NCBI RefSeq assembly: GCF_001936615.1
Contig: NZ_MLBF01000025.1
Location: 17,824 to 49,823 of the forward strand
Length of the DNA stretch: 32,000 nt
Direction of reading: 5' to 3'
Origin: Desulfosporosinus metallidurans
GTDB taxonomy: Bacteria > Bacillota > Desulfitobacteriia > Desulfitobacteriales > Desulfitobacteriaceae
Positions within the stretch are counted from its first letter, which is position 1, and the number at the start of each line of letters is the position of its first letter. Below the pieces are notes generated by a model that was not told where the DNA came from, did no database searches, and saw only the letters and a program-made list of their open reading frames with translations. The position numbers were made by a program, and so were the translations under genes. Of the stretch, positions 289-26,817 are shown in pieces.

Positions 289-302
289 ACCAGTGTTATT
301 GA

Positions 303-2224: not shown

Positions 2225-2231
2225 TATGACT

Positions 2232-3276: not shown

Positions 3277-3578
3277 AGGTCATTTCCTCCCTGCCTATTT
3301 AAAATATCCCGATTTAATCTTAGATCAATTATGGATAATTCTTTAGTTCGGCAAATTTATAGGATATCCTCCCCTCGAGACCAACATATTGCATCACTGC
3401 TATACTCATTAAGTTACAAGTAAAATTCCCATTTTATAAAAAATTTGGCGTTTTTTATTAAGATCTCTGAAATACTGAGCCAAAGAACGCCCTTAAACTC
3501 TAAGATATCCTTAGACATACACCAAAATTTGTGACAATATTAATTAACATAGAAGGTAGAGGAAAGGAGTTCTAACCC

Positions 3579-4244: not shown

Positions 4245-4251
4245 GAACTTG

Positions 4252-4815: not shown

Positions 4816-4876
4816 AAATCACCCTTTCGCAAACTACTTTACAACATTCTTGCAATAACTTACCTCTTTTACCCGC

Positions 4877-5279
4877 TTATATGAATAATCCGGAGCGAAT
4901 TTAGCCACTGCTCCGGATGGTGAGAGCCACAGCTCCGGAATTTCAGAGCCACGCTTCCGGATAGAGAGCCACTCTGGGGTCGACTTGACATGGGACCCTA
5001 CGTCGGATGCTTCAATGGGTCGAGGGCTGTGGCTCATAAGGATGTATTCCTCTGGGGTAAGCCCCATCCCTTGATCTAGGGTAGCATCCGCCGCACCCAT
5101 GTAAAGTCTTACTATGGGGTCAACGGAGGTTGACTGTCTGTTACTGAGACGGTCTTGTCCATGGGTGTAAACGAGTAGGTGACTCAAGCCTCCGGAGGGA
5201 TGGCTCACTTTTACCGGAGAGGTGGCTCACCCACCTCCGGAACGCTGGCTCTGTCGAACCGTAATATTCACTTATAATA
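4877..5279. repeat. Composite inverted repeat (MITE-like), each ~100-nt arm built from four 22-23-nt units TCCGGA-N6-8-GAGCCAC
   Basis: The left arm has TCCGGA at 4889, 4912, 4934 and 4956, each followed by (G)AGCCAC. The right arm (5179-5279) is the reverse complement, with TCCGGA 5191, ACCGGA 5213, TCCGGA 5236 and GTGACTC/TGGCTC/GTGGCTC. The arms align out to TTATA(A)GTGAATA termini. Confidence 0.75.
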
Positions 5280-5323
5280 CTCCTCATTAGCTCCAAACAC
5301 CAAGCCATAATTCCGCATACTAT

Positions 5324-5446
5324 TGTAACGAAATTAAGTTGTTAACTCTCATCTGCTAATCCTGCGGTTTGCAATTTTTACAAAAATTTATAAAGTTGTG
5401 AACTGGTTTTTTCTATTAAAAATTCCATAGAAAAAAGTTGTGAACT
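5324..5446 (+). mobile_element. Putative Tn7-like transposon end (left/distal end): TGT terminus plus three TnsB-site-like repeats
   Basis: TGTAACG at 5324. AGTTGTTAACT at 5337-5347, AGTTGTGAACTGG at 5394-5406 and AGTTGTGAACT at 5436-5446, all in the same orientation. The core resembles the Tn7 TnsB sites as I recall them (..ATAGTTGGGAACTGG, ..ATAGTTGTAAACTGA). Confidence 0.55.
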
Positions 5447-5684
5447 TTATTAGCTTGTGCAGTTTTTGAAAAATCATTTTCTGCTTCACCTTTATTTTGC
5501 AGTGCATGTTTTATCGCTTTCTATGGAAAGTGAGTTGAAAATTATTTTACTCATTAACACCAGAACATTATGGTTTAACAGAGACACCGGTAATGGTTGA
5601 GCCATCTCCAGTGAAAAATGAGACACCCTTACGGAGGGAGAGGTACAGAAGTTAAATTTGGTATTATATGGATAAATGCGAAGT

Positions 5685-6836
5685 TCAAAGAGTACTAATA
5701 TCTTTAACTTCCTGAAACAGCATTTCTTCAATAGCGCTTTGTATTTTGTTCTTAATAGTTCGAGCGTTTTCGCCAGTTGCTTGAATAACTAGACTCACTC
5801 TTTTATACACATCAATCGCATTAATCTTCTCATTACACTCTTTAACATGTGATTCTATTTCACTCATAGTAATATCGTAGATGGTTTTTTCAGAGAAATC
5901 TTTAAAATGTATGAATTTATCAATTCGATAAAAAATGGGAAGTCCTAGACGATCTTTCATTTCATTCATATTGTTATAATTCGAGGTCAAAACAATTAAT
6001 AAGCCAAATATATCCAATTCATAAGTTGCATCACTAAAAATCGCATTATCAAATAACGTATAAAAGGCTGAGTAAAAGTATTCGGGACATTTATCAAGTT
6101 CGTCAAGAAAAATAAGATTAGATTCTCTTTCCAAAAGATCAAATCCTAGACTTCTTCGGTTTGGACGATCTCCAAAAAAGTAATGGGAATATGCATCGTT
6201 TTTGAACATGGATAAATGTTTTTCAACAAATTTACCATTAAAGAATTTATCTGCAATTTCACGTACTAATTCTGACTTACCTAAACTACTTCCACCATAA
6301 AGCATAATAACATAAGGTTTCTTCCGGTTTGCAGTTGTTAGATACCACATACTTTTACTAATTTCAACTATAGCTTCGTCTTGTCCAAAAATGTTATGAG
6401 CGATTCTTTTCATGTTGCCCGAGAAGTTTTCGGGCTGTCGATTTATGCTATATTCTTCTTTATCGCGAGACAAATGAATTAATCCACGATAATGTAAACC
6501 TTCAAGATACGCTTCTAAAATTATTGGCGGATTATGAATATAAATGATAGCGTCATCTGTTGTTAATTCTTCAATAAGAGAACCTAATCTATCATGGGCT
6601 GATTCTACAATTCCATGATAATTATCATTCTTCAAAATCATTATAGAAGCTTTATCTTCGTCTAAAAAAGGATAACCTCTTTGCTTCCGTTCATCAGATA
6701 ATCTAACTAGCTCCAAAAAAATTTTAATAACATTCTCTTCATATTCTTCATCTTGTTTTTCTTCAAGCTTTTTGACTTGAGCATCGAAAAAAGCCTTCGA
6801 GCCGATAACTATATGGTATGTTCTTTTATCAACCAT
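5685..6836 (-). CDS. ClpB-like AAA+ (AAA_2-type) ATPase, DolB-like (Dodola)
   Basis: Walker A LYGGSSLGKSELVREIA, Walker B LIFLDELDKC and sensor LLIVLTSNY follow the layout of the ClpB D2 module. I prefer the ATG at 6836 (GGAGG 5 nt upstream) over the listed 6857. It overlaps the upstream gene by 8 nt. Confidence 0.8.
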   Translation of the reverse strand: MVDKRTYHIVIGSKAFFDAQVKKLEEKQDEEYEENVIKIFLELVRLSDERKQRGYPFLDEDKASIMILKNDNYHGIVESAHDRLGSLIEELTTDDAIIYIHNPPIILEAYLEGLHYRGLIHLSRDKEEYSINRQPENFSGNMKRIAHNIFGQDEAIVEISKSMWYLTTANRKKPYVIMLYGGSSLGKSELVREIADKFFNGKFVEKHLSMFKNDAYSHYFFGDRPNRRSLGFDLLERESNLIFLDELDKCPEYFYSAFYTLFDNAIFSDATYELDIFGLLIVLTSNYNNMNEMKDRLGLPIFYRIDKFIHFKDFSEKTIYDITMSEIESHVKECNEKINAIDVYKRVSLVIQATGENARTIKNKIQSAIEEMLFQEVKDISTL

Positions 6837-7623
6837 TTGTGCCTCCTGCCGTAACACAAGCGTAAACTACATCGTATAATTGTATTTTTGGGGGCCTGTT
6901 ATCGTCAGATGTCATTACGCTTCTTGCAGTATCTTCGGCATTAGATTGTCTTGTTGGATACGCTTCAGCAAGTGATTTGTGTTGATTTACACCTGAAAGT
7001 AGGGTTTCCATTTTAAATAGTTGCTTCATGAAGTCAAACTTTTCTTTATCAAACTCTCCGACGGAAATACAATATAATGTCATTTTGGTTGCTAATAAAT
7101 CATTGCGCTTATAGTTGCTGACAAACGCTGAATTATTGAATCGCACATAACGGTGAGAATCTACTTTATATGTATCATAACCGTCGTAACCATCCATTAC
7201 AGCCTTAAACTCACTTGTGTCAACACCTTCAACGCCGCCCTTTACAATACGCAAGTAGCCACCAGCTACCCTAAAAAAAGTCGAAGAATTTTCAATGTCA
7301 TATATTAGGGTATCTTTAATTTCTGTAAGGTGCGTTTTCAATTCTTCAAACTCGGAAATTTCTGTTGAAGTAATAGTTGTTGAACTATCTCTCTTAATCA
7401 TAAACGATGCGTTTATTTTTCCAGAAAATAAAAAAGAAAGCCTGTCCCAAAAAGGCACACTCAAATTGACCTTTGCTTCAACTCCAACTTCTATAGCAAC
7501 TCCAGTTGAGGAAACAAAATCTGTTTGTGTTGTTTTTGACCCCTTGTTTTGTTCTTGCAAAATATTCCTTATTGTCTCTTTATCAAAATAAATTGTTTTA
7601 TTAATACTTTTTATATTGCTCAA
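6829..7623 (-). CDS. Hypothetical beta-rich protein, candidate DolA (DUF6414-like) partner of the ClpB-like ATPase
   Basis: 264-aa ORF with a TTG start 8 nt after GGAGGG, translationally coupled to the ATPase. The family call rests on gene pairing and size only, not on a motif I can name. Confidence 0.6.
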   Translation of the reverse strand: MSNIKSINKTIYFDKETIRNILQEQNKGSKTTQTDFVSSTGVAIEVGVEAKVNLSVPFWDRLSFLFSGKINASFMIKRDSSTTITSTEISEFEELKTHLTEIKDTLIYDIENSSTFFRVAGGYLRIVKGGVEGVDTSEFKAVMDGYDGYDTYKVDSHRYVRFNNSAFVSNYKRNDLLATKMTLYCISVGEFDKEKFDFMKQLFKMETLLSGVNQHKSLAEAYPTRQSNAEDTARSVMTSDDNRPPKIQLYDVVYACVTAGGTNG

Positions 7624-8376: not shown

Positions 8377-8940
8377 TTAACTGAATTTCCCCAATCCCTT
8401 TGTGCTTAGAGAAATCTTTTTTTTGACTTCGTCGATAGCAATTATCTCTGCCGGACAAATTTCTCCGACTTCAAATTCGGCATATATATCTCCAACGTAT
8501 CGATAGGCAATCTCAGAAATGTGTATCAGGCCCTGTATGGATTCATCAATGCCAGCAATGGCACCATAAGGCATGATATGAAGTATTTCTACATTGATGA
8601 TGTCACCAACAAAGTGCCGACCGCTATTGCTCAGAAAACTGTCGATATCCTCGTCAGCATCTTCCGGTTCGGATATGGCTTCAGGCTGAAAAATGTCAAG
8701 CTCACTAATGTCTTTTGCGGGTTGTCGATCTTTTAAGGCTTTTTCAAGCTCATCCTGCCTTCGGTTTACTTGCGATACAAAAGGATCTTTTAACCCAGAG
8801 TTTCTTAACCACGCGCATATTTCCAATCCATATTCAACTTTATCCGATGATTTTTCGTATTTGCTTAAGTTATAACATAATTTTAACGTTTGTACCAAAG
8901 CAACCCTGACATTGTGGAAAAGGGCCGCTTTCCCTTTCAA
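8377..8940 (-). CDS. S1 (OB-fold) nucleic-acid-binding domain protein; possibly a -1-frame extension of the upstream tnsD-like gene
   Basis: The C-terminal ~75 aa, VGDIINVEILHIMPYGAIAGIDESIQGLIHISEIA...KKISLSTK, match the S1 domain pattern. The only start is a TTG with no SD, overlapping the upstream stop (TTGA). Confidence 0.6.
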   Translation of the reverse strand: MKGKAALFHNVRVALVQTLKLCYNLSKYEKSSDKVEYGLEICAWLRNSGLKDPFVSQVNRRQDELEKALKDRQPAKDISELDIFQPEAISEPEDADEDIDSFLSNSGRHFVGDIINVEILHIMPYGAIAGIDESIQGLIHISEIAYRYVGDIYAEFEVGEICPAEIIAIDEVKKKISLSTKGLGKFS

Positions 8941-10058
8941 GAAAGGGGTGCGTTTTTTATGAAGTCGAACAGTTCTTTCCCATATTCATTAAATGTCATG
9001 CGATATTGCTGCTTTCTGAGTTTTTCTTCTTCATATTTCCTATACAGAATATCGAAGTTGATACAGTAACCGGTACCGAGAGCAAAAAAAGTAAGATAAT
9101 CGTTAGATGTTTTTTTATGGCTGCCTTTTGCGAAAAATTCCCTGATTGTATTTACAGCTTTTTCTTTTTCCAGCACCTCTTGAGACCATAACAAATAAAC
9201 ATAGAGAGTATAAATGTCGGAATCGTGAATAAAGAAATGTATATATTCTTCTATGACACTAATTGCAGCAACAGGATTTAGCCTTGAGTTTGATAGGTAA
9301 TCAGATAATCGCTTGAGTGCGCTTTTACGAAGATTGTACGAACACTTAGAGTTATTTAAGACACGACGATATTTCTCGACAGTCTCTTTTTCGTTGCTAA
9401 ACGCACGGCTTTTGTCAGCCTGAGTGAGCATGGCCTCTAATATATCACCCTCAATATCTTTCCCTCCGATGCTATTCAATAAATTTCTGACCGTATCCCG
9501 GAAATCTTGAGGATATTCGTTATATCTGGCCGTCATCATCTGGAGTAACTCTGCCGAGTAAACACGACCATAAACATCGTTGTTTCGTTCGATTACCTTT
9601 TGGTTGATGACTTCGTCAATGCTTGCCTCGAACTGATCTTTTTCCGGTATGACTTTTCCAAGAACATATTCCAATACGTCAAAATTGAACCGCAAATCGT
9701 TGTCTACCAGAATAGATATGGTTGCAAACAGATATTGTGCATTTGGACTTAGATAATTGAATATTCGCCCATATAAAAATTCCCGAGCGTCCTCGCTTGT
9801 TCTTATTCCTTCGATGAGGTCTTTTAAGAAATCCAATATAGAGCGTTTCTTCGCCGATTCGAATGTATAGTTAGCCTTCTGCTCAATCATCTTACGCTGC
9901 CTTGGTTTAACCATTAGTTCCTCGAAAACATGGTCGGGGGTTACGTTATAAAGGTAGCTCTCTAATATTATTGCGGCTACTCGCCAACCAATGGATACAA
10001 CCGTTTTTTGTTCTTGTTTATTTCCTTCGGATTCTGATCCTGTTTGGGAATAAATCAT
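8937..10058 (-). CDS. C-terminal portion of a TnsD-like protein (the listed ATG is internal; the frame is open upstream to 10139)
   Basis: Upstream of the listed Met the same frame reads ...KKTQYFFGEFTCPSCGMIYSQTG. The Met therefore lies inside a CxxC zinc-ribbon motif expected after the GPWSC..YCP motif of the preceding ORF. Confidence 0.7.
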   Translation of the reverse strand: MIYSQTGSESEGNKQEQKTVVSIGWRVAAIILESYLYNVTPDHVFEELMVKPRQRKMIEQKANYTFESAKKRSILDFLKDLIEGIRTSEDAREFLYGRIFNYLSPNAQYLFATISILVDNDLRFNFDVLEYVLGKVIPEKDQFEASIDEVINQKVIERNNDVYGRVYSAELLQMMTARYNEYPQDFRDTVRNLLNSIGGKDIEGDILEAMLTQADKSRAFSNEKETVEKYRRVLNNSKCSYNLRKSALKRLSDYLSNSRLNPVAAISVIEEYIHFFIHDSDIYTLYVYLLWSQEVLEKEKAVNTIREFFAKGSHKKTSNDYLTFFALGTGYCINFDILYRKYEEEKLRKQQYRMTFNEYGKELFDFIKNAPLS

Positions 10059-11158
10059 GCCACAGCTAGGACAAGTAAACTCTCCAAAAAAATATTGAGT
10101 TTTTTTGTTAAAACTACTTTTATACCCTGTATAACAAATCTATTATAGTCAGGGCAGTAAGTATTTTTACACGACCAAGGACCCGCACCGAAAGGTGAGG
10201 TAGTAAATTCACTAGATATAAAACCTTTGACGGATTGGGATAGATACTCCATGCCCAAAATATGTAATAGTTGATTTTTTGGACGCCCATTGAAATTCAG
10301 CACTTTTAAAGCAGTCCTATTTGACAGATAAATGGAATCAAGGCCTACAGTCTGTAACATTTCCTCGCTAAATAAACCTAAAAATCCTTTTGAAAACTTT
10401 GTATTTATGAACATCCCTTGGGATGCCAGGTACCCTTTATGTGAATATAATCTGAGCATTTTTTCTTTAAATATTTCAACGTTTAATTTGTCCACATTGT
10501 CAATAACAAATTTAACATCCCTTGCCAGTTGCTCGTTAAACAATTGAATCTGCGTGGGCGATTCTACTTCTACTCTGCGACCATCTCCTAGATAGTGCCC
10601 ACATGAACAAGTAGGTTCCATCAAAATAAATCGTCCAAAGCTATCTGACAATGGTGCACCACATTTGGGACAATGGGTTACTAGGTTAAAGCGATGAACT
10701 GGGCAAACAGTTACAAAATTGTACTGATGAACCCTATGTATATAACATTCCCTAAATCTTTCAAAGTCTTCTATTAAACAAGTTGGACAATAACGAACAA
10801 GGGTGGAGACTATTGGCGACAACAATCGAGTACCAATCTCCGATCTATCACTTGCACACCTAAATTCTACTAGGATCTTTTCGCGTTCATCGAGTGAAAG
10901 AAACGGAAGAAACAGCGCTAATAACGTGTGATTCGCTATGAAATAATCCGTAGTAAGAAAGAGTTTCTCAGGCAGCCTCTCAGCCAAATAATCTAAATTA
11001 CGAGGGAAATGCGCTAATCTATGGGTCTTAATATTAAAAAGTTCCTCAATTGTTTTTGTAATATTTAAGTTACCCGAACGAATGTGGTAACGATACGTCA
11101 AACTCCTGAAGTCTTCATCTTCATAAGGGGTAGGGAAAAAACCTAGTTCATTTTTCAT
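10055..11158 (-). CDS. tniQ: TniQ/TnsD-family transposition target-selector, N-terminal portion
   Basis: FFPTPYEDEDFRSLTYRYHIRSG, HTLLALFLPFLS..ERE, RYCPTCLIEDFERF and CPVHRFNLV run parallel to the Tn7 TnsD N-terminus as I recall it (FPVPYSNELIYSTIARAG.., EHTLFPLYAPFVGKERRD, RYCPDCV.., CPKHGALV). GPWSCKNTYCPDYN follows later. Confidence 0.85.
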   Translation of the reverse strand: MKNELGFFPTPYEDEDFRSLTYRYHIRSGNLNITKTIEELFNIKTHRLAHFPRNLDYLAERLPEKLFLTTDYFIANHTLLALFLPFLSLDEREKILVEFRCASDRSEIGTRLLSPIVSTLVRYCPTCLIEDFERFRECYIHRVHQYNFVTVCPVHRFNLVTHCPKCGAPLSDSFGRFILMEPTCSCGHYLGDGRRVEVESPTQIQLFNEQLARDVKFVIDNVDKLNVEIFKEKMLRLYSHKGYLASQGMFINTKFSKGFLGLFSEEMLQTVGLDSIYLSNRTALKVLNFNGRPKNQLLHILGMEYLSQSVKGFISSEFTTSPFGAGPWSCKNTYCPDYNRFVIQGIKVVLTKKLNIFLESLLVLAVA

Positions 11159-11340: not shown

Positions 11341-14300
11341 CTAATCAATAAAAAACATTGTTTGAAAGGGAACCTCGTAAACAACCCTCTTCCCTTCCAT
11401 TCGGTATACATAAACACGTTCTCTAATCGTACGATAGTCCTGTTCAATCAAATCCTTAGTTAGCTCATCTTCATTAGTTGTTAAAATGACATATCTACTG
11501 ACTCCCTCAGTATCTTCGCTTATAAAATCAATCAAACCATAGGCATCCATCATCTTTTGATAAAGCCTTCCATGGTGATCCTCATAATCCTTGATGATGC
11601 TTTCATAATCGTTTGGAATTAGACGACTATAGAGCGAATCCTCAGGAACTTGTACCTTAAATTGAGCCACTTTTTTCACGGGTCGTAATTGTATGCTGCG
11701 CTCTCGTTCGATTTCTTCAAGCCTTTCATTGCGACGCTCTTCGAGTTCTTCAACCTGACTGATTGTTTGGTTAATTAAAGCACTATTCCTATGATCGACA
11801 TCCTCCGCTTGATATTTTTGCAAACGCTCGTAAAGTGTTGTCATCTGGGTATCAAAAGAACGTCTTAGGAATTGACTTTTCCGATTCAGTAACTCTTCTC
11901 GACCAAGACGCATCGAGATCAACTGTAGACGCGCTTGTTTAATAACTTCCCCCTTAAATGTTCCATCTTCCAAACCAACTATCTCTGCGCCCCCCATCGT
12001 ATCACTAAACAACCAATAGGGAGACAAACGGATATAGTCACCATTGGCTCGTTTCGCTAGCAAGAGCAAGCTGCGTTCCAATTCTCGGCCTTGACCATTA
12101 ACAAAACTAATTTCATTCAACTCTACAATAAGAGATTCGCTCGCTTTAAACCGTATACTACAGGCCGGAATCGATGTTCGCTGTACATCCTGCTCGGCAT
12201 AGGCTAGGGCGAGCTTATAGAGAGGATGATCGTTTTGCAAAAGCAACAAATCTTTTGACTCTTTATCTTCCTTGACCGTAAACCGATAAGCTCCTTCGTC
12301 GTTAAAAATAATCTTATTTTTTCTTCCGAATTCTCGGACAGATTTTGGGATGCGATCCGTACGAATGATGGACCTATCCGCTGATATATTCAACTTCAGA
12401 CGTGTGGACTGTAATTGTTCTAAGGCAAACTGTCCGTAAACACGTGCAGGCATACTTTCCAGGGATAACTCATTGTATGAACGCCTCACACCGGGGAAAT
12501 CAAAACTTTGATCATCGAGCCGCTCTTCTCGAGCTTGTTCCAGTAGACGTCGATGCTCTTCTGATAAACGTTTTTCCATCTGAGCGATCAGATCATCCAG
12601 ATTTTCACGACCTGAAATGGCCCCTTCCATGAGGCTTGCCAGATCAATTTCCTCTTCTTCCAGAACTTCGCCTATGAAATCATAGACAAGCTCCTGACCT
12701 AGATCCACGCGCATCTGCTCAAGCTTCTCGAGTAAGCATCTCATGACTTCCCCTTCGCGAGTGTTCACCGCTACAAGGTTAAAGACAAAGACTTCATTCC
12801 TTTGACCAATCCGATGAATACGCCCCATTCGTTGTTCAAGTCTGTTTGGATTCCAAGGGACATCATAATTAATCATCTGATTACAAAATTGCAGGTTGAT
12901 TGATTCTCCACCAGCATCGGTTGCTAGCATGATCTGAACATCATTGCGGAACTTTTCAATCTCTTCTCGACGTCGATCCATAGAAAAGTCTCCGATAATT
13001 TTCGCCACCGTTGGTACCCGTTCAAGTAAGCGCTGTTCTAGATAATTCAGGGTATCTTTGGACTCCGAGAAAATGAGAATTTTTTCCCCTTTGGCCAAAA
13101 GGGCCTTTGGTCCAAACAAAGTGGATTCTAGCTCTAAATATTTTCGTTCGACTTCCAGTATCCGGACCCCATTGGCCTTCCGAATTAAACGCGTCAATTC
13201 ATCAATTTCCAACTGCAATTCATGGAGGTCAAGTGCATCAGTTTGACCCTCTGCTGCGCCCTCCAGTTCATCTTGTTCTTCGGCTGTGGCATTTTCATAA
13301 TCCTCGATGGAGAACGCCTGAACTTGCATTAATTCTTTTCCCAATGCCTCTTCGAGCCGTTCTTTCCTTCGTACTAAGGATAAGTAAATCGCCTCAATTG
13401 AAGAGCAAAGCCTGCGTTGCAAGAGCATCATCGCAAATACCGTACTATGATTGTTATTCTTTTTGGCCCGGTTAAAATGTTCACTGACATAAGCCGTGAC
13501 ATCGTTATATAACTCTAATTCATCCTTGGACAAATTAAAGGCTAAGGTTTGGGTGGTCCGTTTAGGAAATAAGGGGGTACCCTCAAAGGTGACCATGGAC
13601 TCCTTCAATCGTCGGATGATAAAGGGATTGCTTTTCTCATATAATGAGTCGCTAGTGTTGAGGTTGGAAAAAAGGTCATGGTCTATGAGGTTCATTAAGT
13701 GGCGAAAGTTCTCCTTATCACCCTTGTGCGGGGTAGCCGTCAACAGCAAACAATGTTCTATATCTCGCAACAGCACTTCCCCTAGCTGATACATCTTGGT
13801 TCGTTGTATTTTCCTCCTTTTTACCCCATGGGTGTAGGCCGCCATCTTATGCGCTTCATCTACAATGATCAGGTCAAACTTAGAACGGATCAGATAGTTC
13901 TTGACATCCTCACGCATTGCCCAGTAAAGGGAGGCCAGACATTTATCGTGTTGATCAAACGGATTCAGCACTCCGGATTCACGCAGTGTTGTGCGAGAAA
14001 TAATCTTGAACTCCTCGCCAAACTTCTCCTTTAACTCTTCTTGCCATTGAGGGAGCACCAGCGGTGGCACAAGAATCAGGATTCGCTCGACACTTTGCCT
14101 GGCCAATAATTCTCGAAGAAGCATCCCCGCCATAATTGTTTTCCCTGCGCCTGGATCATCCGCCAGCAAGAATCTCACTTGTGGGGTTTGCAACATGCGG
14201 CTATATACCGCTTCAATTTGATGGGGCAAGGGGATAATCCGTTGGTTCCCTCGCACCCTTGACTTAGAATAGCGTTCATCCACCTTGAGGACATGGTAGC

Positions 14301-14526
14301 GCAAGTAATGCACAATTCGATCCATGCTAAAAACACTATTAACGTTTTGTTGTAATGGCTCCAAGGACTCAATCTGTTGTAACTCCAAATAGGTTTCATA
14401 ATACTCTCTCGTCTGGCGACCAATGGCTTCTACTAAAAAGAGGGTCTGATCTATGGATTCACATTTCTTGATTTCTACGATCTCCGCCCAGTAGGGGCCT
14501 TGGATGATATCTCCAACTTTAATCAA
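11341..14526 (-). CDS. brxHII: SNF2-family (COG0553-type) helicase, BrxHII-like
   Basis: Motif I LLADDPGAGKT, motif II IIVDEAHKM, motif III LLLTATPHKG and motif VI QRMGRIHRIGQ. TTG start after GGGGGAAGG. Same strand as the BREX core and downstream of it. Confidence 0.8.
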   Translation of the reverse strand: MIKVGDIIQGPYWAEIVEIKKCESIDQTLFLVEAIGRQTREYYETYLELQQIESLEPLQQNVNSVFSMDRIVHYLRYHVLKVDERYSKSRVRGNQRIIPLPHQIEAVYSRMLQTPQVRFLLADDPGAGKTIMAGMLLRELLARQSVERILILVPPLVLPQWQEELKEKFGEEFKIISRTTLRESGVLNPFDQHDKCLASLYWAMREDVKNYLIRSKFDLIIVDEAHKMAAYTHGVKRRKIQRTKMYQLGEVLLRDIEHCLLLTATPHKGDKENFRHLMNLIDHDLFSNLNTSDSLYEKSNPFIIRRLKESMVTFEGTPLFPKRTTQTLAFNLSKDELELYNDVTAYVSEHFNRAKKNNNHSTVFAMMLLQRRLCSSIEAIYLSLVRRKERLEEALGKELMQVQAFSIEDYENATAEEQDELEGAAEGQTDALDLHELQLEIDELTRLIRKANGVRILEVERKYLELESTLFGPKALLAKGEKILIFSESKDTLNYLEQRLLERVPTVAKIIGDFSMDRRREEIEKFRNDVQIMLATDAGGESINLQFCNQMINYDVPWNPNRLEQRMGRIHRIGQRNEVFVFNLVAVNTREGEVMRCLLEKLEQMRVDLGQELVYDFIGEVLEEEEIDLASLMEGAISGRENLDDLIAQMEKRLSEEHRRLLEQAREERLDDQSFDFPGVRRSYNELSLESMPARVYGQFALEQLQSTRLKLNISADRSIIRTDRIPKSVREFGRKNKIIFNDEGAYRFTVKEDKESKDLLLLQNDHPLYKLALAYAEQDVQRTSIPACSIRFKASESLIVELNEISFVNGQGRELERSLLLLAKRANGDYIRLSPYWLFSDTMGGAEIVGLEDGTFKGEVIKQARLQLISMRLGREELLNRKSQFLRRSFDTQMTTLYERLQKYQAEDVDHRNSALINQTISQVEELEERRNERLEEIERERSIQLRPVKKVAQFKVQVPEDSLYSRLIPNDYESIIKDYEDHHGRLYQKMMDAYGLIDFISEDTEGVSRYVILTTNEDELTKDLIEQDYRTIRERVYVYRMEGKRVVYEVPFQTMFFID

Positions 14527-14660: not shown

Positions 14661-15272
14661 TTATGCATTATCTGCCTTCATACTGGCAGTGTAATAGTTA
14701 TGGCGGCGATGGCTTTCAATATTTTTAACAAAAACATTACAATTTAGCCAAGACAATTTCTTTTTAATTTTTTCACGCAAATTGGTCAAAATTGCCTTTT
14801 GAGGCCTTGTGTTTGATGCAAAATCTCCCTCTAAAAACAAAACAACTTTGATTTTGTTTGTTCCCAAAGATATATTATTCGTCATGATAAAATCAGAATA
14901 CTTCTTCAATACCCCACTATGAGTTTGTAATTGTGGCTGAGAATGTGCACCACACAAACATGCCAATGTCATCGCGACTTTTTTAGGAATTTCAATATCG
15001 AGGCTATCTCTGTCCTCAGTATCAACCATTGTGGCGGTTCTATCACGTTTACTGTTGTCCGTTGAAATGCGCCATAGATTTTCACCTTCGTGTCCAGCAC
15101 AATTTTTGACTTCTATTAGCATAAGAGTATCCTCCGATTTCAGAATGAAATCTACTCCCTTGCCGCCTGGCAAATTTTTAAAGTATTTTTTGTAATATCC
15201 AGTATCATCAAATTTATCTACGGTGAGATGATCGTCAAATTCAAAGACGATGCCGCTTTCATCAAACCTCAT
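14661..15272 (-). CDS. PD-(D/E)xK-type nuclease-fold protein (predicted), partner of the upstream ABC-type ATPase
   Basis: GKGVDFIL-(9 aa)-LMLIEVKN gives a D...ExK arrangement. I prefer the ATG at 15272 (AGAGG 7 nt upstream), which gives 203 aa. It overlaps the ATPase stop by 11 nt. Confidence 0.6.
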   Translation of the reverse strand: MRFDESGIVFEFDDHLTVDKFDDTGYYKKYFKNLPGGKGVDFILKSEDTLMLIEVKNCAGHEGENLWRISTDNSKRDRTATMVDTEDRDSLDIEIPKKVAMTLACLCGAHSQPQLQTHSGVLKKYSDFIMTNNISLGTNKIKVVLFLEGDFASNTRPQKAILTNLREKIKKKLSWLNCNVFVKNIESHRRHNYYTASMKADNA

Positions 15273-16332
15273 AGAATAACCTCTGTTCTCTATCATAAAG
15301 ATGATCAAATTCTTGCATAATAGCATTATGTTCTAAATCCAACAATGTAGGACCGGATTCGAAAAGGATATTATCATTTTCCTTATAAAATGAAATGAAT
15401 TTTACATCAATATTTTCTAGCATGGGCTGGTTTGGCTTATACTCAGAAATCATGGAAAAGCACTGCTGTAGGAAGTAATCATGAGTCGCAATAAAAACTT
15501 GAACGCCCATGTTTGCCAGTACTACTAAAGCTTGTACTATTGGTTCTATCATTTTGGGGTTCATATTTGTCTCAGGTTCATCCCAAAAAAGAACTGAGTT
15601 TTTGTTTAAACTTCCGGAGAGGATCAAATATATAATAGTTGATAGCTTACGATATCCTTCGGAAACTAACCCCATTTCAAACTCGCCTTGACCATCTACT
15701 CTAAGGTAAAATTTCTTGCCTTTTTGAATTATCGATCCATTGATTATATTATTAAAGCTCTCCAATACTTTGTTTTGCTCAGCCGTATTGGGTCCCCTCT
15801 TTAAAGGCCTATCAAGTAGAAGAGCCAAATCATAATAAGTTTCTTCAAAAGCAATACGGTATTCGTAGTATAGAGCAGTGAAATTCTCTGTAGCCGAGAT
15901 TATTTCTTTAGGCGGAAGATATATTGGCTCAACAGATTTCACAAATCCTCTTAAGAGTTGATTGATATCCAGATGCTTTTCTTGATTTGAACTAAAACCA
16001 AACTCAAGTTTCGTATTTTCGTTGACTGTTATTGCTATATTAGTGCTTTTGCTTCCCTGAATGCGTCTTACTAAACGTCCAATTTTATCATCATCCGGTC
16101 TAAAAACACCTTGAAGCTTTGAAACTAGAAGCTCTTCATTCTGTTCCTTTGTTAACTCTGACTTAGCTTTGTTGGCATTGCTAATTGACTTAGTTGCCGA
16201 ATACAACAGTTTTAACATGGCCGTCTTACCAGTGCTGTTTTCACCGCTAATAATATTAATATTCTTAGAAAAATCGATATTAAGGGAATTGAAAAGCATG
16301 AAATCATTAAGAACTAATTTGCTAATATACAT
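15262..16332 (-). CDS. ABC-type/AAA_21-like ATPase (the Septu PtuA / PARIS AriA class of ATPase)
   Basis: Walker A ISGENSTGKT, signature-like VSEGYRKLS, Walker B/D-loop VLFWDEPETNMNP and H-loop IATHD. The N-terminus MYISKLVLNDF is typical for this class. I prefer the ATG at 16332 (GAGGTG 6 nt upstream) over 16356. Confidence 0.8.
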   Translation of the reverse strand: MYISKLVLNDFMLFNSLNIDFSKNINIISGENSTGKTAMLKLLYSATKSISNANKAKSELTKEQNEELLVSKLQGVFRPDDDKIGRLVRRIQGSKSTNIAITVNENTKLEFGFSSNQEKHLDINQLLRGFVKSVEPIYLPPKEIISATENFTALYYEYRIAFEETYYDLALLLDRPLKRGPNTAEQNKVLESFNNIINGSIIQKGKKFYLRVDGQGEFEMGLVSEGYRKLSTIIYLILSGSLNKNSVLFWDEPETNMNPKMIEPIVQALVVLANMGVQVFIATHDYFLQQCFSMISEYKPNQPMLENIDVKFISFYKENDNILFESGPTLLDLEHNAIMQEFDHLYDREQRLFYEV

Positions 16333-16441
16333 TTCCCACACCTCTTCCTTATTCATAGATTATTCCCTAATTTTTCAGATTTGATAATGGAGCAAACATC
16401 CTGCATGAATTTCACCTTAACAGCACGCAGATATTACCATT

Positions 16442-16579: not shown

Positions 16580-19111
16580 TTAATATAGAGTTTGGTACAT
16601 CCGCAGTGTGAACACTTCATCCCGATAAAGTTCCACCTTACCCGCCCGCATCGTCTCAATCCTCAAGTGGCATGTTTCCCCCAGTGCATAGTGGCTTTCC
16701 GCTAAGGTAAATACAACCGATACATTCCGTTCCATCGCCTCACCCGTCAAATCAAACGTATAAATCACTTCATTAGAAATTCTCTCGTCATCCTTATAGA
16801 AAGCCATCTTAACCTGACGAGGTAATACATCGCTGGTAATCCTTTGTTCTTGGTAGAAAGTTACTTGTTGCCGGTAGTTAGTAATAATCTTATCAGGAGT
16901 TGCTAGGTTAACGTTGACTAGTTCGGCATCGGCTGTGCGACGATAATCGATCAAGGGAATCACCACTTCCTGGGGCATGGCTCCACCATGAATGAATTGC
17001 AACCCGCCTGCTCCGATAAAACGATTTAGCCCTTTAGCGATCACTGCCTCACAATTAAGGGATACTGCTTCTACCGGAAGGCGAATGGCTCCTTCCGGAA
17101 CGGTTAAGCCCTTTCCTAAAGCAAAACGCCGGTTTTTATCATAGATTTCGCCTGTGACCGCCTTGACCTTGGCGTCCGCTTCGACCTTGTTATATTGAAA
17201 TAGGAAGCCGTGATCAGAGGTGATAAAGATTCGCTTAGCCTGAAGGCGTGAAAGTTTGTCGACGGCATCTTTTAAGACCACAATCGTTCGTTCGACCGCA
17301 TCATAGGTCTCCCGTTCGGTTTTAGTTGTATCTCCCGTTGCGTCAATCACGTCATGGTACAAATAAACCAAGCGTTTTCGCTTGAACTTCTCATCGGCCA
17401 CGCTGGTGGACCAATCCATGAAATCCCCCAAACGATAGCTTACCGACTCCGGACAATGCGCTTGCAAAACCATCTCGCGATTGGCCAAACCACGGGTGGA
17501 CTTGCCATCGACATAGACCGTTCCACCTTCATCAATGCGCATTTCACGGTGGGGCAAGAGGCACGCCATACCCAATTGGGTATAACTTGGTAAACTAACC
17601 TGCATGGGTTGAATCGTTGCCTCGCCATTGATGCGTTGATTGAGCTGTTCTCTTAAATCTTGCCCCACTTCATACCGCAAGGCATCGGAGATGATCACGA
17701 AAATCTTCGTCTGTTCCTTATTTATAATAGGGCGGATTTGTTCGGTGTAAAATCGTTCTTGTTTCAATATTTTACCCTTATGTTCAATAGTCCCCTCACT
17801 TAACCAATCATTGGTTTGATTCGCCAGATGGAGAAGATAAACGTTTTCATACCAATTGGTCAGTTGTTCTATTAAAGGGTGCAACAACTCTCTTTGTTCT
17901 AGGTGCCAGTAGTTTTGCATCAAGTGTCGGTAAGCTTGGTCAATTTTGTACCATTCACTGGCGTAGAGGCTTAAGAAATTCCCCCACGATGCCGAATTAG
18001 AAGCATATTTTTTGAGCAGTGTTTTTAGCTCAGTAAGTTTTACTACGTCACTCAGCACATTATAATAACCGGCGAGTTTCTCTTTTTTTCCCCAGTGGGA
18101 CTGCCTGTGATAATTAATCCGCTCACTCCAAGCACTTAGATCAGCCGTTTGATGCATGATCTGTTCGATCATTTGCTCGATCAGTAACCCCTCTATCGAG
18201 GGAAACGTCGTGGTGAGATCATACCCCTCGAGCGACTTTGCTCTGAGTTGCTCAGGGATCCTAAACTTGGATTCAAAATCTCTAATATATCCCTCTAACT
18301 GCTCTACCTTCTGCTTTTCTTCCCGAAACCAGTCGTCAATAAAGAGTGCACAGGTATTCGGTAAGATCGATTTCAAGCTTTCCATTAAAGGGGGATCAAT
18401 GCGCGCTGCGCTGGCGAAATGTTGATAAATCAAGCTTTCCATCAATTCTAGTAAAGGACTACTATCCCCCTCGATCACAATTCCAAAGTGCGGTAGGATC
18501 AACTCCCACATGCGCTTTAAGGAGAAGAACTTGGCAACCTTTTTTAGGCCCTCATTGTAAGCAGAATCAAGCCCTAAATGTAAGAGCTGTTTGGTTAAGT
18601 CAGGAATGGTCATCGAGGGGGAGCCGCTAAGTACCGCGAGCATAGCGATTTCGACCGTCTTCTGATCTGAATGGGCCGGTAACATGCGTTTTAACTTGTG
18701 CTTACGTTCTTTACCTTTAAAGAAGGCCGCATAACGTTCAACCAGGGGGCGGATTTCCTGATCGTCTACCTGCAGTTCCGCGACTACCATGGCCACTTCA
18801 TCCGACTTAAACTCTGCTCCGTAAAGCAGGATATCCAACAAGTAATTCTTTTCATCATGGGGTCGCGGAAAAGAGGCATAGAGAACAAACGAAGTTTGAG
18901 GATGTTTAATTTCGATGTCGTATTTCAGCCGAAAGAAATTATTTTGGGTTATGCGACGCACTTCAATTTCTTCTGGCGCAAATTCTTGTTCTAACTCAGT
19001 AAAGTCCATCTGTTCACTGGCATCATACCAGAATAGTATAGCCCGTTGTTTAGAGTCTTTCTCTTGGGTAATTTTTTCGCGCAAAGACTGTAGCAAATCC
19101 ATTTTTCTCAA
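16580..19111 (-). CDS. pglZ: BREX PglZ, alkaline-phosphatase-superfamily protein
   Basis: 843 aa with FVIISDALRYEVG and IFITSDHGFLF metal-site-like motifs, positioned directly after pglX. The start is either TTG 19111 or ATG 19102. Confidence 0.85.
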   Translation of the reverse strand: MRKMDLLQSLREKITQEKDSKQRAILFWYDASEQMDFTELEQEFAPEEIEVRRITQNNFFRLKYDIEIKHPQTSFVLYASFPRPHDEKNYLLDILLYGAEFKSDEVAMVVAELQVDDQEIRPLVERYAAFFKGKERKHKLKRMLPAHSDQKTVEIAMLAVLSGSPSMTIPDLTKQLLHLGLDSAYNEGLKKVAKFFSLKRMWELILPHFGIVIEGDSSPLLELMESLIYQHFASAARIDPPLMESLKSILPNTCALFIDDWFREEKQKVEQLEGYIRDFESKFRIPEQLRAKSLEGYDLTTTFPSIEGLLIEQMIEQIMHQTADLSAWSERINYHRQSHWGKKEKLAGYYNVLSDVVKLTELKTLLKKYASNSASWGNFLSLYASEWYKIDQAYRHLMQNYWHLEQRELLHPLIEQLTNWYENVYLLHLANQTNDWLSEGTIEHKGKILKQERFYTEQIRPIINKEQTKIFVIISDALRYEVGQDLREQLNQRINGEATIQPMQVSLPSYTQLGMACLLPHREMRIDEGGTVYVDGKSTRGLANREMVLQAHCPESVSYRLGDFMDWSTSVADEKFKRKRLVYLYHDVIDATGDTTKTERETYDAVERTIVVLKDAVDKLSRLQAKRIFITSDHGFLFQYNKVEADAKVKAVTGEIYDKNRRFALGKGLTVPEGAIRLPVEAVSLNCEAVIAKGLNRFIGAGGLQFIHGGAMPQEVVIPLIDYRRTADAELVNVNLATPDKIITNYRQQVTFYQEQRITSDVLPRQVKMAFYKDDERISNEVIYTFDLTGEAMERNVSVVFTLAESHYALGETCHLRIETMRAGKVELYRDEVFTLRMYQTLY

Positions 19112-19141
19112 CCCTTTCCCGAGTTCAACCTCTGTGCCAAC

Positions 19142-22642: not shown

Positions 22643-22669
22643 CACTTGTATTCCCTCCAAGCTCTCTAC

Positions 22670-26242: not shown

Positions 26243-26262
26243 GAATTCATCTCCAGTTTTAG

Positions 26263-26817
26263 TTAGATTCTCGATAATTGGTATTGGTCTTCGTTATTGA
26301 GTTTATGAAATAAGCACAGATTAAGGCCCGTAAATTGCCCTGGGTAAAATAAAATGATCGTCCTTCGATAGGCGTAGGTTGATAATATCTTCAACAGTTT
26401 ACTCGATCGCATCAAGGGGAAAGCATTCCCCACTCCAGTGATCAAGATGAGCTCAGCATCCCCCGCAGCCTTGATAAAGGATTCGACTAACGTCTGTTCA
26501 TTAACTAAGACCGTTTCCGTGGACTCGACTAAGCCCGTAAGTCCCTCTTCATCACTAATCTCTAGGAGATCCTCTATGTCCCCCTCAAAGAGATTCAGAA
26601 AGAACTCAAAGAGATTAATAGTCTGAATCTTCATCGGCGATTGCTCAACAAGCACTTTTAAATATGTACGTACTTTAAGCTCATCCTCAGCAGGGTAATC
26701 AAATACATAATGGGGAATTTCGCTTCCTATTCCCTTGGGGGTGGTAAAACCCTGCTCGTGTATTCGAATTTTAACGTGGTTTAAGCGTTCATAAGTATCC
26801 GCAATCAATTCATGCAC
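26263..26817 (-). CDS. brxB: BREX BrxB (DUF1788-like)
   Basis: 184 aa, with a GTG start abutting the brxA stop. Assigned by size and conserved position in the brxA-brxB-brxC order. Confidence 0.7.
   Translation of the reverse strand: MHELIADTYERLNHVKIRIHEQGFTTPKGIGSEIPHYVFDYPAEDELKVRTYLKVLVEQSPMKIQTINLFEFFLNLFEGDIEDLLEISDEEGLTGLVESTETVLVNEQTLVESFIKAAGDAELILITGVGNAFPLMRSSKLLKILSTYAYRRTIILFYPGQFTGLNLCLFHKLNNEDQYQLSRI

What the first reader, a model, noticed from the sequence alone, without database searches (positions are those of the whole stretch)
5324..5446. Tn7-type transposon end that makes the Dodola-like genes transposon cargo, yet no tnsABC or partner end is in the window
Three same-orientation repeats are spaced 57 and 42 nt apart: AGTTGTTAACT at 5337, AGTTGTGAACTGG at 5394 and AGTTGTGAACT at 5436. 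They are preceded by TGTAACG at 5324. The core is nearly identical to the TnsB-binding repeats of Tn7 as I remember them (R end GACAAAATAGTTGGGAACTGG; L end GACAGAATAGTTGTAAACTGA and GACAATAAAGTCTTAAACT), and Tn7 ends start with TGT. The sites read from the terminus inward, toward higher coordinates and so toward tnsD, which is transcribed toward this end as in Tn7, where the tns operon reads from the R end toward the L end. That places the S1 ORF and the Dodola-like pair in the classical cargo position. Where tnsC, tnsB and tnsA should lie (above 11158) there is a BREX locus instead. I found no inverted copy (CCAGTTCACAACTT...ACA) up to 32 kb. The element is therefore either very large with defence cargo on both sides of tnsD, or a decayed skeleton whose transposase module was replaced.
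Basis: partly seen in the sequence, partly recalled or inferred. Interest (0 to 1): 0.65.

Follow-up and report, generated by a model that had tools for sequence, protein, structure and literature searches.

The report
Left end of transposase-less Tn7-like island
The three repeats are the genuine left end of a roughly 30-kb Tn7-family transposon that carries only anti-phage defence genes, sits just after a ribonucleotide reductase gene, and has lost its own transposase, which makes it a clear but ordinary example of how such transposons decay into defence islands.

Summary
AGTTGTKAACT occurs exactly three times in 32 kb, at 5337, 5394 and 5436, all on the + strand; none of 100 shuffles gave any match.

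The partner end exists about 3.6 kb past the window end. An identical overlapping contig (L003) carries an inverted array of about eight repeats at a ~20-nt period, starting TGTTCAAAAGAAATTAAGTTGTGAACT.

Empty-site contigs from the same sample series join the two flanks exactly. The element therefore runs from window 5321/5322 to about 35602 (~30.3 kb). Its R end lies 5 nt after the stop codon of an RNR gene with Ribonuc_red plus TSCPD domains (probably B12-dependent, nrdJ-like).

The same repeat pair sits just upstream of tnsA-tnsB in three unrelated genomes, and it resembles verified Tn7 TnsB sites.

The element has no tnsA, tnsB or tnsC. Its tnsD is a frameshifted, 3'-truncated pseudogene fused to a relic of a STAND-S1 gene. 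There is no 5-bp target duplication. In the family register the L terminus reads TAT, not TGT.

Everything else is defence cargo: Dodola, a DrmD-like helicase, HEC-02, BREX and CBASS.

Verdict: this is a real Tn7-like L end of a decayed, probably immobile defence island. It is a new member of a known kind, of moderate-to-low interest.

The parts
5271..5321 (.). Native left flank, ending at the junction ...CCGCATACT. It is shared with the empty-site contigs.
   Evidence: L023, L024, L027 and L028 match window 5271-5321/5324 at 98-100% and then continue into the RNR gene 3' end instead of the element.
5321..5460 (+). Left (L) end of the Tn7-like element. It carries three dispersed TnsB-type repeats.
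   Evidence: establish the repeats. One search gives the exact boundary against the empty site. One search gives the register relative to Tn7 L, the element's own R end and three bona fide R ends. In that register the L and R ends are identical at 23 of 28 positions.
5337..5347 (+). Repeat 1, AGTTGTTAACT (putative TnsB-binding site).
   Evidence: The identical 11-mer occurs in arrays 90-160 nt upstream of tnsA in L006, L008 and L014.
5394..5404 (+). Repeat 2, AGTTGTGAACT.
   Evidence: It matches the Tn7 L-end core AGTTGGGAACT at 10 of 11 positions.
5436..5446 (+). Repeat 3, AGTTGTGAACT.
   Evidence: It is the best hit in the whole window to a matrix built only from the seven real Tn7 sites (score 20.4, against a maximum of 19.6 in 30 shuffles).
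5685..7623 (-). Dodola defence pair (DolB 5685-6857, DolA 6829-7623), the cargo next to the L end.
   Evidence: PADLOC gives DolB E=4.6e-97 and DolA E=1.4e-50. The cassette 5675-7716 recurs at 94% identity in another island (L119).
8377..9836 (-). Relic of a STAND (NB-ARC/NACHT) NTPase gene with a C-terminal S1 domain. It lacks its first ~500 codons and is split by a 1-nt frameshift (an extra A in an A-run, near 8945).
   Evidence: Residues 77-371 of the 373-aa ORF align to residues 505-799 of the 984-aa protein P0085 at 62% identity. The close 935-1150-aa relatives scanned carry an S1 domain, and five of the six also carry NB-ARC/NACHT. P0083 and P0084 read through the frameshift site.
9836..11158 (-). 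tnsD pseudogene. The TniQ and TnsD domains are present, there is a frameshift at about 10110-10140, and the gene is truncated at about codon 435 of ~650.
   Evidence: Pfam gives TniQ 3.4e-17 and TnsD 4.6e-21. It is 56% identical to the intact 657-aa TnsD P0182 over residues 1-333. Homology then continues in another frame, where residues 3-73 of the 373-aa ORF align to P0182 361-433.
11341..14526 (-). SNF2 helicase, DrmD/BrxHII-like (defence cargo).
   Evidence: PADLOC DrmD scores 1169 bits. The NCBIfam DISARM_DrmD score is below its cut-off.
14661..16356 (-). HEC-02 two-gene candidate defence system (AAA_21 ATPase plus DUF6661).
16580..27411 (-). Type 1 BREX core: PglZ, PglX, BrxC, BrxB, BrxA.
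   Evidence: Pfam.
27776..31535 (-). Three ORFs of 171, 964 and 139 aa with no family match. They are cargo lying between BREX and the CBASS operon. The element continues past the window end to the R end at about 35602.
   Evidence: There are no Pfam, PADLOC or NCBIfam hits. L003 shows CBASS (SMODS, E2, patatin) and then the R-end array.

Best explanation
Window 5321-5460 is the left (L) end of a ~30.3-kb Tn7-family element. The three AGTTGTKAACT repeats are the dispersed L-end binding sites for a TnsB-type transposase. The matching right end lies about 3.6 kb beyond the window and is a closely packed array of about eight repeats at a ~20-nt period.

The element was originally placed by TnsD-type, site- and orientation-specific transposition 5 nt downstream of the stop codon of an RNR gene (Ribonuc_red plus TSCPD domains; calling it B12-dependent or nrdJ-like is my inference). 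The R end is next to that gene, just as Tn7 sits next to glmS.

The element has since decayed:
- tnsA, tnsB and tnsC are absent.
- tnsD is frameshifted, truncated and fused by deletion to a broken STAND-S1 gene.
- The L terminus reads TAT instead of TGT in the family register.
- There is no 5-bp target duplication.

What remains is a defence island (Dodola, a DrmD-like helicase, HEC-02, BREX, three unknown ORFs and CBASS) bounded by fossil transposon ends. The island is present in some and absent from other near-identical strains of one Desulfosporosinus-like population.

Shown: the boundaries, the partner end, the attachment site, the absence of tnsABC and the pseudogene state of tnsD. Inferred: that TnsB once bound these repeats, that the element can no longer move by itself, and that the presence/absence polymorphism is maintained by homologous recombination in the flanks or by lineage sorting rather than by ongoing transposition.
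For: - Repeats: exact, clustered and non-random.
- Partner end: L003 is identical to the window over 13,758 nt and extends it. At L003 31-200 it carries TGTTCAAAAGAAATTAAGTTGTGAACT followed by repeats at a ~20-nt period, inverted relative to the L end.
- Empty site: L024, L027 and L028 read ...CGYSKCG* TAA AGAAA|AGTATGCGG..., which is the R flank joined directly to the L flank.
- Family signature: a scan of 185,579 genomes for the repeat pair found it 90-160 nt upstream of tnsA-tnsB(-tnsC-tnsD), in the same orientation, in Hahella, Oceanobacter and Desulfovibrio.
- Comparison with real Tn7: the R721 ends show the same architecture, with L sites dispersed at +10, +74 and +130 and R sites in ~20-nt phase, and a core differing at 1 of 11 positions. 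MAFFT aligns both ends of this element with the Tn7 L end and three R ends.
- Target selector: a tnsD homologue lies inside the element and is transcribed towards the L end.
- No transposase: tblastn with the two Gram-positive TnsA/B/C/D sets (L004, L005) found only the tnsD match, and no ORF hits rve, TnsA or TniB families.
- tnsD decay. The frameshifts are reproduced in independent assemblies L001, L002 and L120.
- Precedent: RNR genes are known Tn7-family attachment sites (10.1101/2025.07.27.667033). Decayed remnants at nrdB are described (PMC11014353). BREX and CBASS are common Tn7-like cargo (PMC8649781).
Against: - There is no 5-bp target-site duplication. The flanks add up exactly to the empty site (CCGCATACT | TTTCTTTATCC), which canonical Tn7 transposition does not produce and simple erosion does not neatly explain.
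- A matrix built from E. coli Tn7 sites alone scores only one of the three L sites above shuffled background.
- Only 30 nt of the right flank are known for the occupied allele, and they come from a metagenome contig rather than from the window itself.
- The R region looks composite: three AGTTGTGAACT-type sites are followed by five AAAGTCTGYCACT-type sites. The latter occur alone at this site in other genomes, so the history may involve more than one insertion.
- An island polymorphic among strains whose left flanks are 99-100% identical is somewhat unexpected for an old, dead element.
- TnsB binding was not tested and cannot be tested here.
Confidence: 0.78

Rival explanations
1. The element is a functional non-autonomous (mini-Tn7-like) defence island. 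It has no transposase of its own but is still moved in trans by TnsABC(+TnsD) from a cognate autonomous Tn7-like element elsewhere in the genome or community. That mobility would explain why the island is polymorphic among near-identical strains.
For: - Both ends keep multiple well-conserved repeats.
- Occupied and empty alleles coexist with left flanks 99-100% identical. Contigs break exactly k-1 = 30 nt from the junction, as expected when both alleles are present in one sample.
- Interior contigs break at 5472 and 5491, just inside the L end. This would fit the L end being shared with another sequence context, though the evidence is weak.
- A second R-end array followed directly by BREX without tnsA exists in Marinisporobacter (L011).
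Against: - There is no target-site duplication.
- The L terminus is TAT in the family register, or TGT 3 nt out of register. Mutating the terminal TGT/ACA is the standard way to immobilise mini-elements (PMC11014353; 10.1101/2025.07.27.667033).
- No second copy of the terminal 18-mer turned up in the JGI metagenome scan, and the scan of GTDB species genomes for the repeat pair returned neither this element nor any Desulfosporosinus hit.
- No close intact TnsD was found with usable context. The nearest full-length hits in the first search are about 34% identical, and P0182 (56% identical) has no contig on record.
- The element's own tnsD is a pseudogene, so both targeting and transposase would have to come entirely from elsewhere.
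Confidence: 0.13
2. The R region records stacked insertions at one hot spot, not one simple element. An older element, with AAAGTCTGYCACT-type R sites and the present L end, was already at the site. A later insertion next to the RNR gene left only its outer 70 bp (three AGTTGTGAACT sites). On this view the present 'R terminus' and the L end never transposed together as a pair, which would explain the missing target duplication.
For: - The inner half of the array (L003 100-200) is 85% identical over 88 nt to an R-end array that sits alone 5 nt after the RNR stop in L116. Similar arrays occur in L045, L052, L075, L096 and L108 and in Desulfosporosinus sp. OT and BG.
- Both site types occur at this attachment site in either order (L032, L036, L092).
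- L003 ~294-440 resembles native DNA downstream of the RNR gene in L094 (72% over 148 nt), suggesting that foreign flank DNA lies inside the island.
- There is no duplication between the present outer junctions.
Against: - The empty site in this population lacks any scar, and it differs from the occupied allele by exactly the segment from the outer R terminus to the L end. That segment therefore behaves as a single unit.
- A later insertion should leave its own L end between the two R arrays, and none is there.
- Real Tn7 also has GTCT-type sites in its R end and GTTG-type sites in its L end, so mixed site types within one element are normal.
- The fourth repeat fits a degenerate phased site as well as it fits a second terminus.
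Confidence: 0.2
3. The repeats are unrelated to transposition. They would be chance AT-rich repeats, or operator or terminator elements for the adjacent Dodola operon.
For: The repeats lie in an AT-rich intergenic region downstream of DolB, among small inverted repeats.
Against: - No shuffle of 100 gave even one exact match.
- The boundary of the strain-specific 30-kb segment falls 16 nt upstream of repeat 1.
- An inverted array of the same motif ends the segment on the other side.
- The same motif flanks tnsA in three unrelated genomes.
- The Dodola cassette recurs in L119 without this region; homology stops at 5675.
Confidence: 0.02

Closest known systems
Prototype Tn7 (E. coli; ends read here from plasmid R721, NC_002525.1)
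   Same: - The end architecture matches: three dispersed sites at the L end and ~20-nt phased sites at the R end.
- The site core is nearly the same: AGTTGTGAACT here, against AGTTGGGAACT (Tn7 L) and AGTTGTAAACT (Tn7 R).
- The first site starts at +17 from the terminus.
- The tns reading direction runs from the R end towards the L end, with cargo next to the L end.
- The R end abuts the 3' end of a conserved gene.

   Different: - There is no tnsA, tnsB, tnsC or tnsE, and tnsD is a pseudogene.
- The attachment site is an RNR gene, not glmS, and the insertion is 5 nt after the stop rather than ~25 bp.
- There is no 5-bp duplication, and the L terminus is TAT.
- The R end has about eight sites instead of four.
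- The cargo is ~27 kb of defence genes rather than an integron.
Tn7-like transposons carrying defence-system cargo (survey of 6,549 elements, PMC8649781)
   Same: The cargo consists of defence systems, including BREX and CBASS, which that survey lists among Tn7-like cargo. The close TnsD relatives L004 and L005 carry Wadjet-like and Qat-like cargo downstream of tnsABCD.
   Different: Those elements were defined by their tns genes. This one has none, so a gene-anchored survey would miss it. Its nearest TnsD relatives with known context (L004, L005) do not carry this end motif.
Decayed Tn7-like remnants at the nrdB attachment site of Acinetobacter baumannii (PMC11014353), and nrdD- or nrdB-targeting Tn7 family elements (10.1101/2025.07.27.667033)
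   Same: A ribonucleotide reductase gene serves as the attachment site, and ancestral insertions decay in place into islands.
   Different: Here the target is a different RNR gene (large-subunit domains plus TSCPD, probably class II/nrdJ) in a Firmicute. Also, the ends are well preserved while the tns genes are gone. In the A. baumannii case the reverse holds: some tns genes are kept but the ends are hard to recognise.
Laboratory mini-Tn7 elements (ends only, transposase supplied in trans)
   Same: L and R ends flank cargo, with no transposase in between.
   Different: This element is natural and 30 kb long. Its L terminus departs from the TGT that functional mini-elements keep, it shows no target duplication, and no helper transposase has been identified.

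Membership tests
Tn7 family (Tn7-like) transposon | Several TnsB-binding repeats in each end in inverted orientation, arranged asymmetrically (dispersed in L, closely packed in R). | tested here: met
   The L end has 3 sites spaced 57 and 42 nt. The R end has about 8 sites in ~20-nt phase at L003 47-198 on the opposite strand. Real Tn7 shows the same layout.
Tn7 family (Tn7-like) transposon | The repeat sequence is related to ends of elements that demonstrably carry tnsABC. | tested here: met
   The same 11-mer pair lies 90-160 nt upstream of tnsA-tnsB in L006, L008 and L014. The core matches Tn7 sites at 10 of 11 positions, and the ends align with them. A matrix from Tn7 sites alone is only partly discriminating.
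Tn7 family (Tn7-like) transposon | Terminal 5'-TGT...ACA-3' at both ends, at a fixed distance from the first site. | tested here: inconclusive
   The R end has TGT with the first site at +17, as in Tn7 and four relatives. At the L end that register reads TAT (5321-5323), and the TGT at 5324 puts the first site at +14.
Tn7 family (Tn7-like) transposon | A 5-bp target-site duplication flanks the element. | tested here: not met
The empty site is CCGCATACT|TTTCTTTATCC. The occupied site is CCGCATACT[ATTGTAACG...TTTTGAACA]TTTCTTTATCC.
Tn7 family (Tn7-like) transposon | Encodes the core machinery: TnsB (DDE transposase), TnsC (AAA+ regulator) and usually TnsA. | tested here: not met
   tblastn with the L004 and L005 TnsA/B/C proteins against the window plus L003 gave nothing below E=0.08. 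No ORF hits rve, TnsA or TniB families in Pfam, NCBIfam or PADLOC.
Tn7 family (Tn7-like) transposon | Encodes a TniQ/TnsD target selector. | tested here: inconclusive
   TniQ and TnsD domains are present, but the gene is frameshifted and truncated at about codon 435 of ~650, so the C-terminal ~220 residues are missing.
Tn7 family (Tn7-like) transposon | Site- and orientation-specific insertion just downstream of a conserved gene, with the R end proximal. | tested here: met
   The R terminus lies 5 nt after the TAA of the RNR gene. R-end-like arrays sit 5-7 nt after the same stop codon in at least 13 metagenome contigs and in Desulfosporosinus sp. OT and BG.
Tn7 family (Tn7-like) transposon | TnsB binds the repeats and the element transposes. 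| not testable with these tools
   This needs EMSA or footprinting and a mate-out assay.
Active non-autonomous element mobilised in trans | A cognate transposase elsewhere in the same genome, further copies at other sites, and fresh target duplications. | tested here: inconclusive
   No duplication is present. The JGI metagenome scan found no other copy of the terminal sequence, and the scan of species-representative genomes for the repeat pair found nothing in this host's relatives. The host genome itself could not be searched.

The most novel reading that the evidence does not exclude
Transposase-less islands bounded by Tn7-type ends may be a maintained class rather than mere debris. One version: this 30-kb defence island (and the Marinisporobacter R end followed directly by BREX) still moves by borrowing TnsABC(D) from autonomous relatives. 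A second version: the solo R-end arrays kept just after the RNR stop codon in many Desulfosporosinus genomes are retained because their TnsB-binding sites give the attachment site target immunity against new Tn7-like insertions.
Probability: 0.12. Interest if true: 0.6.

Novelty: new member of a known kind. Interest (0 to 1): 0.33.

Why it matters
This gives an exactly delimited example, with both junctions and the empty site, of a Tn7-family transposon that has turned into a pure defence island holding at least five systems. It sits at an attachment site I did not find described: the 3' end of a probably class II RNR gene in Desulfosporosinus.

It also shows that surveys anchored on tns genes miss such islands, whereas the end repeats can still find them. 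In addition, this attachment site carries end-like scars in many genomes.

None of this changes how Tn7-like elements are understood. Defence cargo, RNR attachment sites and in-place decay are all documented already.

Tried and rejected
- Rfam, both at gathering thresholds and at E<=1 over 4700-5750, found nothing at the end region. The only hits were the group II intron elsewhere.
- I first suspected that the GC-rich block 4882-5270 was a structured RNA serving as the attachment site. It is a separate small insertion, absent from the empty-site contigs.
- I first read the 373-aa ORF as the missing C-terminal half of TnsD, and then as part of a 'TnsD-S1 fusion'. Both readings were rejected. 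Residues 77-371 belong to a STAND NTPase-S1 family, and only residues 3-73 are TnsD.
- The closest TnsD relatives with context (L004, L005) have tnsABCD but a different end motif, so they could not serve as models for these ends.
- The metagenome scan for the exact terminal sequence of either end found nothing.
- I tried every plausible register for a 5-bp duplication, including the inner TGT at L003 100. None works.
- A matrix from the seven Tn7 sites was too overfitted to separate all the sites from AT-rich background.
L003 ends at its contig end anyway.
- No genomic context is on record for the intact TnsD P0182.
- The contig breaks at 5472 and 5491 fall in AT-rich sequence and are too ambiguous to prove a second copy of the L end.

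Full report
**1. The observation**

The sequence shows AGTTGTTAACT at 5337, AGTTGTGAACTGG at 5394 and AGTTGTGAACT at 5436. All three are on the + strand, spaced 57 and 42 nt, with TGTAACG at 5324. The repeat finder recovers them as one family. AGTTGTKAACT has exactly three exact matches in the window on both strands, and none of 100 dinucleotide-preserving shuffles gave any match. Allowing one mismatch adds nothing.

**2. Surroundings inside the window**

- To the left lie housekeeping genes: an acyltransferase, uracil-DNA glycosylase and an FMN reductase.
- To the right, every gene is on the minus strand.
  - DolB and DolA (PADLOC E=4.6e-97 and 1.4e-50).
  - An S1-domain ORF, a 373-aa ORF, and a 367-aa ORF with TniQ and TnsD domains.
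  - A DrmD/BrxHII-like SNF2 helicase, a HEC-02 pair, and BREX genes PglZ, PglX, BrxC, BrxB and BrxA.
  - Three ORFs with no family match.
- Nothing in the window resembles TnsA, TnsB or TnsC.

**3. The partner end**

Contig L003 was fetched through the 964-aa ORF. It is identical to the window over 13,758 nt and runs 3,632 nt past the window end. It adds a CBASS operon (cyclase, E2, patatin lipase).

At L003 31-200 it reads TGTTCAAAAGAAATTAAGTTGTGAACTcgtTGATAAAGTTGTGAACTggcTAATAAAGTTCTGAACT. Five more repeats follow at a ~20-nt period, of the form ATAATAAAGTCTGYCACT. All are on the strand opposite to the L-end repeats. In window-equivalent coordinates the R terminus is at about 35602.

**4. 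Exact boundaries and the empty site**

Contigs from other samples of the same series carry the identical FMN reductase gene (L024, L027, L028). They read ...HCGYSKCG* TAA AGAAA|AGTATGCGGAATTATGG.... The first part equals L003 1-30, which is the R flank. The second part equals the reverse complement of window 5321-5271, which is the L flank.

- In window orientation the empty site is CCGCATACT|TTTCTTTATCC.
- The occupied site is CCGCATACT[ATTGTAACG...TTTTGAACA]TTTCTTTATCC.

The strain-specific segment is therefore ~30.3 kb and is bounded precisely by the two repeat-bearing ends.

The flanking ORF is the C-terminus of an RNR. Its homologue in Desulfosporosinus sp. OT and BG is an 800-aa protein with Ribonuc_red_lgN, Ribonuc_red_lgC and TSCPD domains. 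Calling it B12-dependent or nrdJ-like is my inference from that domain set. The R end starts 5 nt after its stop codon.

The host is Desulfosporosinus-like, judged from the names in its protein clusters.

The contigs stop exactly 30 nt (k-1) from the junction. This is what a de Bruijn assembly does when both alleles are present in one sample (inference).

**5. Is it a Tn7-type end?**

- A scan of one genome for each of 185,579 species for AGTTGTKAACT-N9-AGTTGTKAACT gave 14 loci. In Hahella, Oceanobacter and a Desulfovibrio MAG the pair lies 90-160 nt upstream of tnsA-tnsB(-tnsC-tnsD), in the same orientation.
- The real Tn7 ends were fetched from plasmid R721.
  - L-end sites ACAAAATAGTTGGGAACT lie at +10, +74 and +130.
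  - R-end sites lie in ~20-nt phase.
  - The tns genes read from R towards L, with cargo next to L.
  - This is the layout seen here, and the core differs at 1 of 11 positions.
- MAFFT aligns the window's L end, its own R end, the three bona fide R ends and the Tn7 L end in a single register.
- A matrix built from the seven Tn7 sites alone ranks 5429-5446 first in the window. It was otherwise too overfitted to be decisive.

Taken together with the tnsD homologue inside the element and the R-end-proximal insertion after a conserved gene, the identification is secure.

**6. Signs of decay**

- *Transposase genes.* No tnsA, tnsB or tnsC lies anywhere between the ends.
- *tnsD.*
  - The 367-aa ORF is 56% identical to residues 1-333 of an intact 657-aa TnsD, P0182.
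  - The homology, including the CPSCG zinc ribbon, then continues in another frame into the first ~75 residues of the 373-aa ORF.
  - It stops there, so the C-terminal ~220 residues are missing.
- *STAND-S1 relic.*
  - The rest of the 373-aa ORF is 62% identical to residues 505-799 of the 984-aa protein P0085.
  - P0085 belongs to a family of ~850-1150-aa proteins. The six close relatives scanned all have a C-terminal S1 domain, and five of them an NB-ARC/NACHT NTPase domain.
  - The S1 ORF is the continuation of that gene, separated by an extra A in an A-run. P0083 and P0084 read straight through that site.
  - So a deletion fused a truncated tnsD to a 5'-truncated STAND-S1 gene, and each part also carries a frameshift.
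  - Three independent assemblies carry the same sequence.
- *L terminus.* In the family register the L terminus is TAT (5321-5323). The TGT at 5324 is 3 nt too close to the first site. Mutating the terminal TGT/ACA is how immobile mini-elements are made.
- *Target duplication.* There is none.
- *A decayed relative.* L029 carries a tnsD 74% identical at the protein level, truncated at a different point and set in different surroundings.

**7. The attachment site is a hot spot**

A metagenome scan for the RNR C-terminal motif gave 87 loci. At least 13 of them have Tn7-like R-end arrays 5-7 nt after the stop codon. Examples are L116, L096, L052, L045, L075, L108, L039, L065, L068, L090, L033, L036 and L092. 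Desulfosporosinus sp. OT and BG have them as well.

None of the 87 loci has a tns gene, even where 6-8 kb of downstream sequence is available. These arrays therefore look like solo scars.

The inner half of this element's R array is 85% identical over 88 nt to the L116 array. This raises the possibility of stacked insertions (rival 2).

**8. Comparison with what is known**

- Defence cargo, including BREX and CBASS, is common in Tn7-like transposons (PMC8649781).
- RNR genes (nrdB, nrdD) are recurrent attachment sites (10.1101/2025.07.27.667033).
- Decayed remnants downstream of nrdB are reported in A. baumannii (PMC11014353).
- I found no mention of ribonucleotide reductase or nrd genes in the target-selector survey (PMC10293859).

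This case is therefore a new member of a known kind. It is distinguished by well-preserved ends, complete loss of tnsABC and a different RNR target.

**9. Verdict**

The partner end, the attachment site and the empty site are now defined. The element is best described as a fossil Tn7-like transposon that survives as a polymorphic defence island. Interest is moderate to low.

The main open points are whether the island can still be mobilised in trans, why there is no target duplication, and whether the R array records one insertion or two.

Noticed in passing
window 4882-5270: A 389-bp GC-rich insertion lies ~50 nt left of the L end. It has terminal inverted repeats (TGAATAATCCGG / reverse complement GTGAATATTACGG) and a 6-bp duplication, CTTATA. 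Arrays of GAGCCAC..CTCCGGA subterminal repeats sit in inverted arrangement. The predicted fold is very stable (-182 kcal/mol) and there is no Rfam match. It is absent from L023-L028. Related copies occur in L036 (86% over 148 nt) and partly in L029. It looks like a MITE-like mobile element of unknown family.
   Followed up: partly
window 302-2224: A group II intron (RT/maturase ORF 386-1816, Rfam D1-D4 domains at 1840-2139) is an insertion polymorphism. Contig L023 joins window 301 directly to 2225.
   Followed up: partly
window 8377-9836, and proteins P0085-P0094: The S1 ORF and most of the 373-aa ORF are the relic of a STAND NTPase (NB-ARC/NACHT) with a helical middle region and a C-terminal S1 domain. 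About 100 representative clusters exist, with full-length proteins of 850-1150 aa. The two window ORFs have no PADLOC match, so the family may be an undescribed Avs-like defence family.
   Followed up: partly
L020 (Desulfosporosinus sp. BG), L021 (sp. OT), and L033, L036, L039, L045, L052, L065, L068, L075, L090, L092, L096, L108, L116: Solo Tn7-like R-end arrays (TGTTCAMTGATAATAAAGTCTGTCACT...) lie 5-7 nt after the RNR stop codon, with no tns genes downstream. They are often followed by a conserved ~100-nt stretch ending in a hairpin. They are widespread scars at this attachment site, and why they stay so well conserved is unexplained.
   Followed up: partly
L011 (Marinisporobacter balticus DSM 102940), reverse strand ~1745-7543: A Tn7-like R-end array starts right at the stop codon of a methionine gamma-lyase gene. 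After ~900 nt of non-coding DNA come BrxA, BrxB and BrxC, with no tnsA within 6 kb. This is a second case of an R end followed directly by defence genes. Its BREX is only 25-45% identical to the one in the window.
   Followed up: partly
window 27776-31535: Three co-directional ORFs (171, 964 and 139 aa) between BREX and CBASS have no Pfam, PADLOC or NCBIfam match. Given their position, they are candidates for an undescribed defence system.
   Followed up: no
window 7889-7954 and 27659-27725: A ~70-nt stretch (about 80% identical) recurs upstream of DolA and upstream of BrxA. It comprises a T-rich terminator tail, a conserved CTTGGAWTAYTT..ACTGATCTTAGGAGGAAA and a ribosome-binding site. It may be a shared promoter or leader of defence cassettes.
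   Followed up: partly
window 5675-7716 and L119 9848-11888: The Dodola cassette is 94% identical in an unrelated contig, where it sits next to a DISARM locus and an IS21-like element. Homology stops 10 nt past the DolB stop codon. Defence cassettes are being exchanged between islands as modules.
   Followed up: partly
L003 ~294-440 (window-equivalent ~35195-35339): Part of the ~800-nt non-coding stretch between the R array and CBASS resembles native DNA immediately downstream of the RNR gene in L094 (72% over 148 nt). It includes a terminator-like hairpin that also occurs in L032. This suggests that flank DNA from a former host travels inside the island.
   Followed up: no
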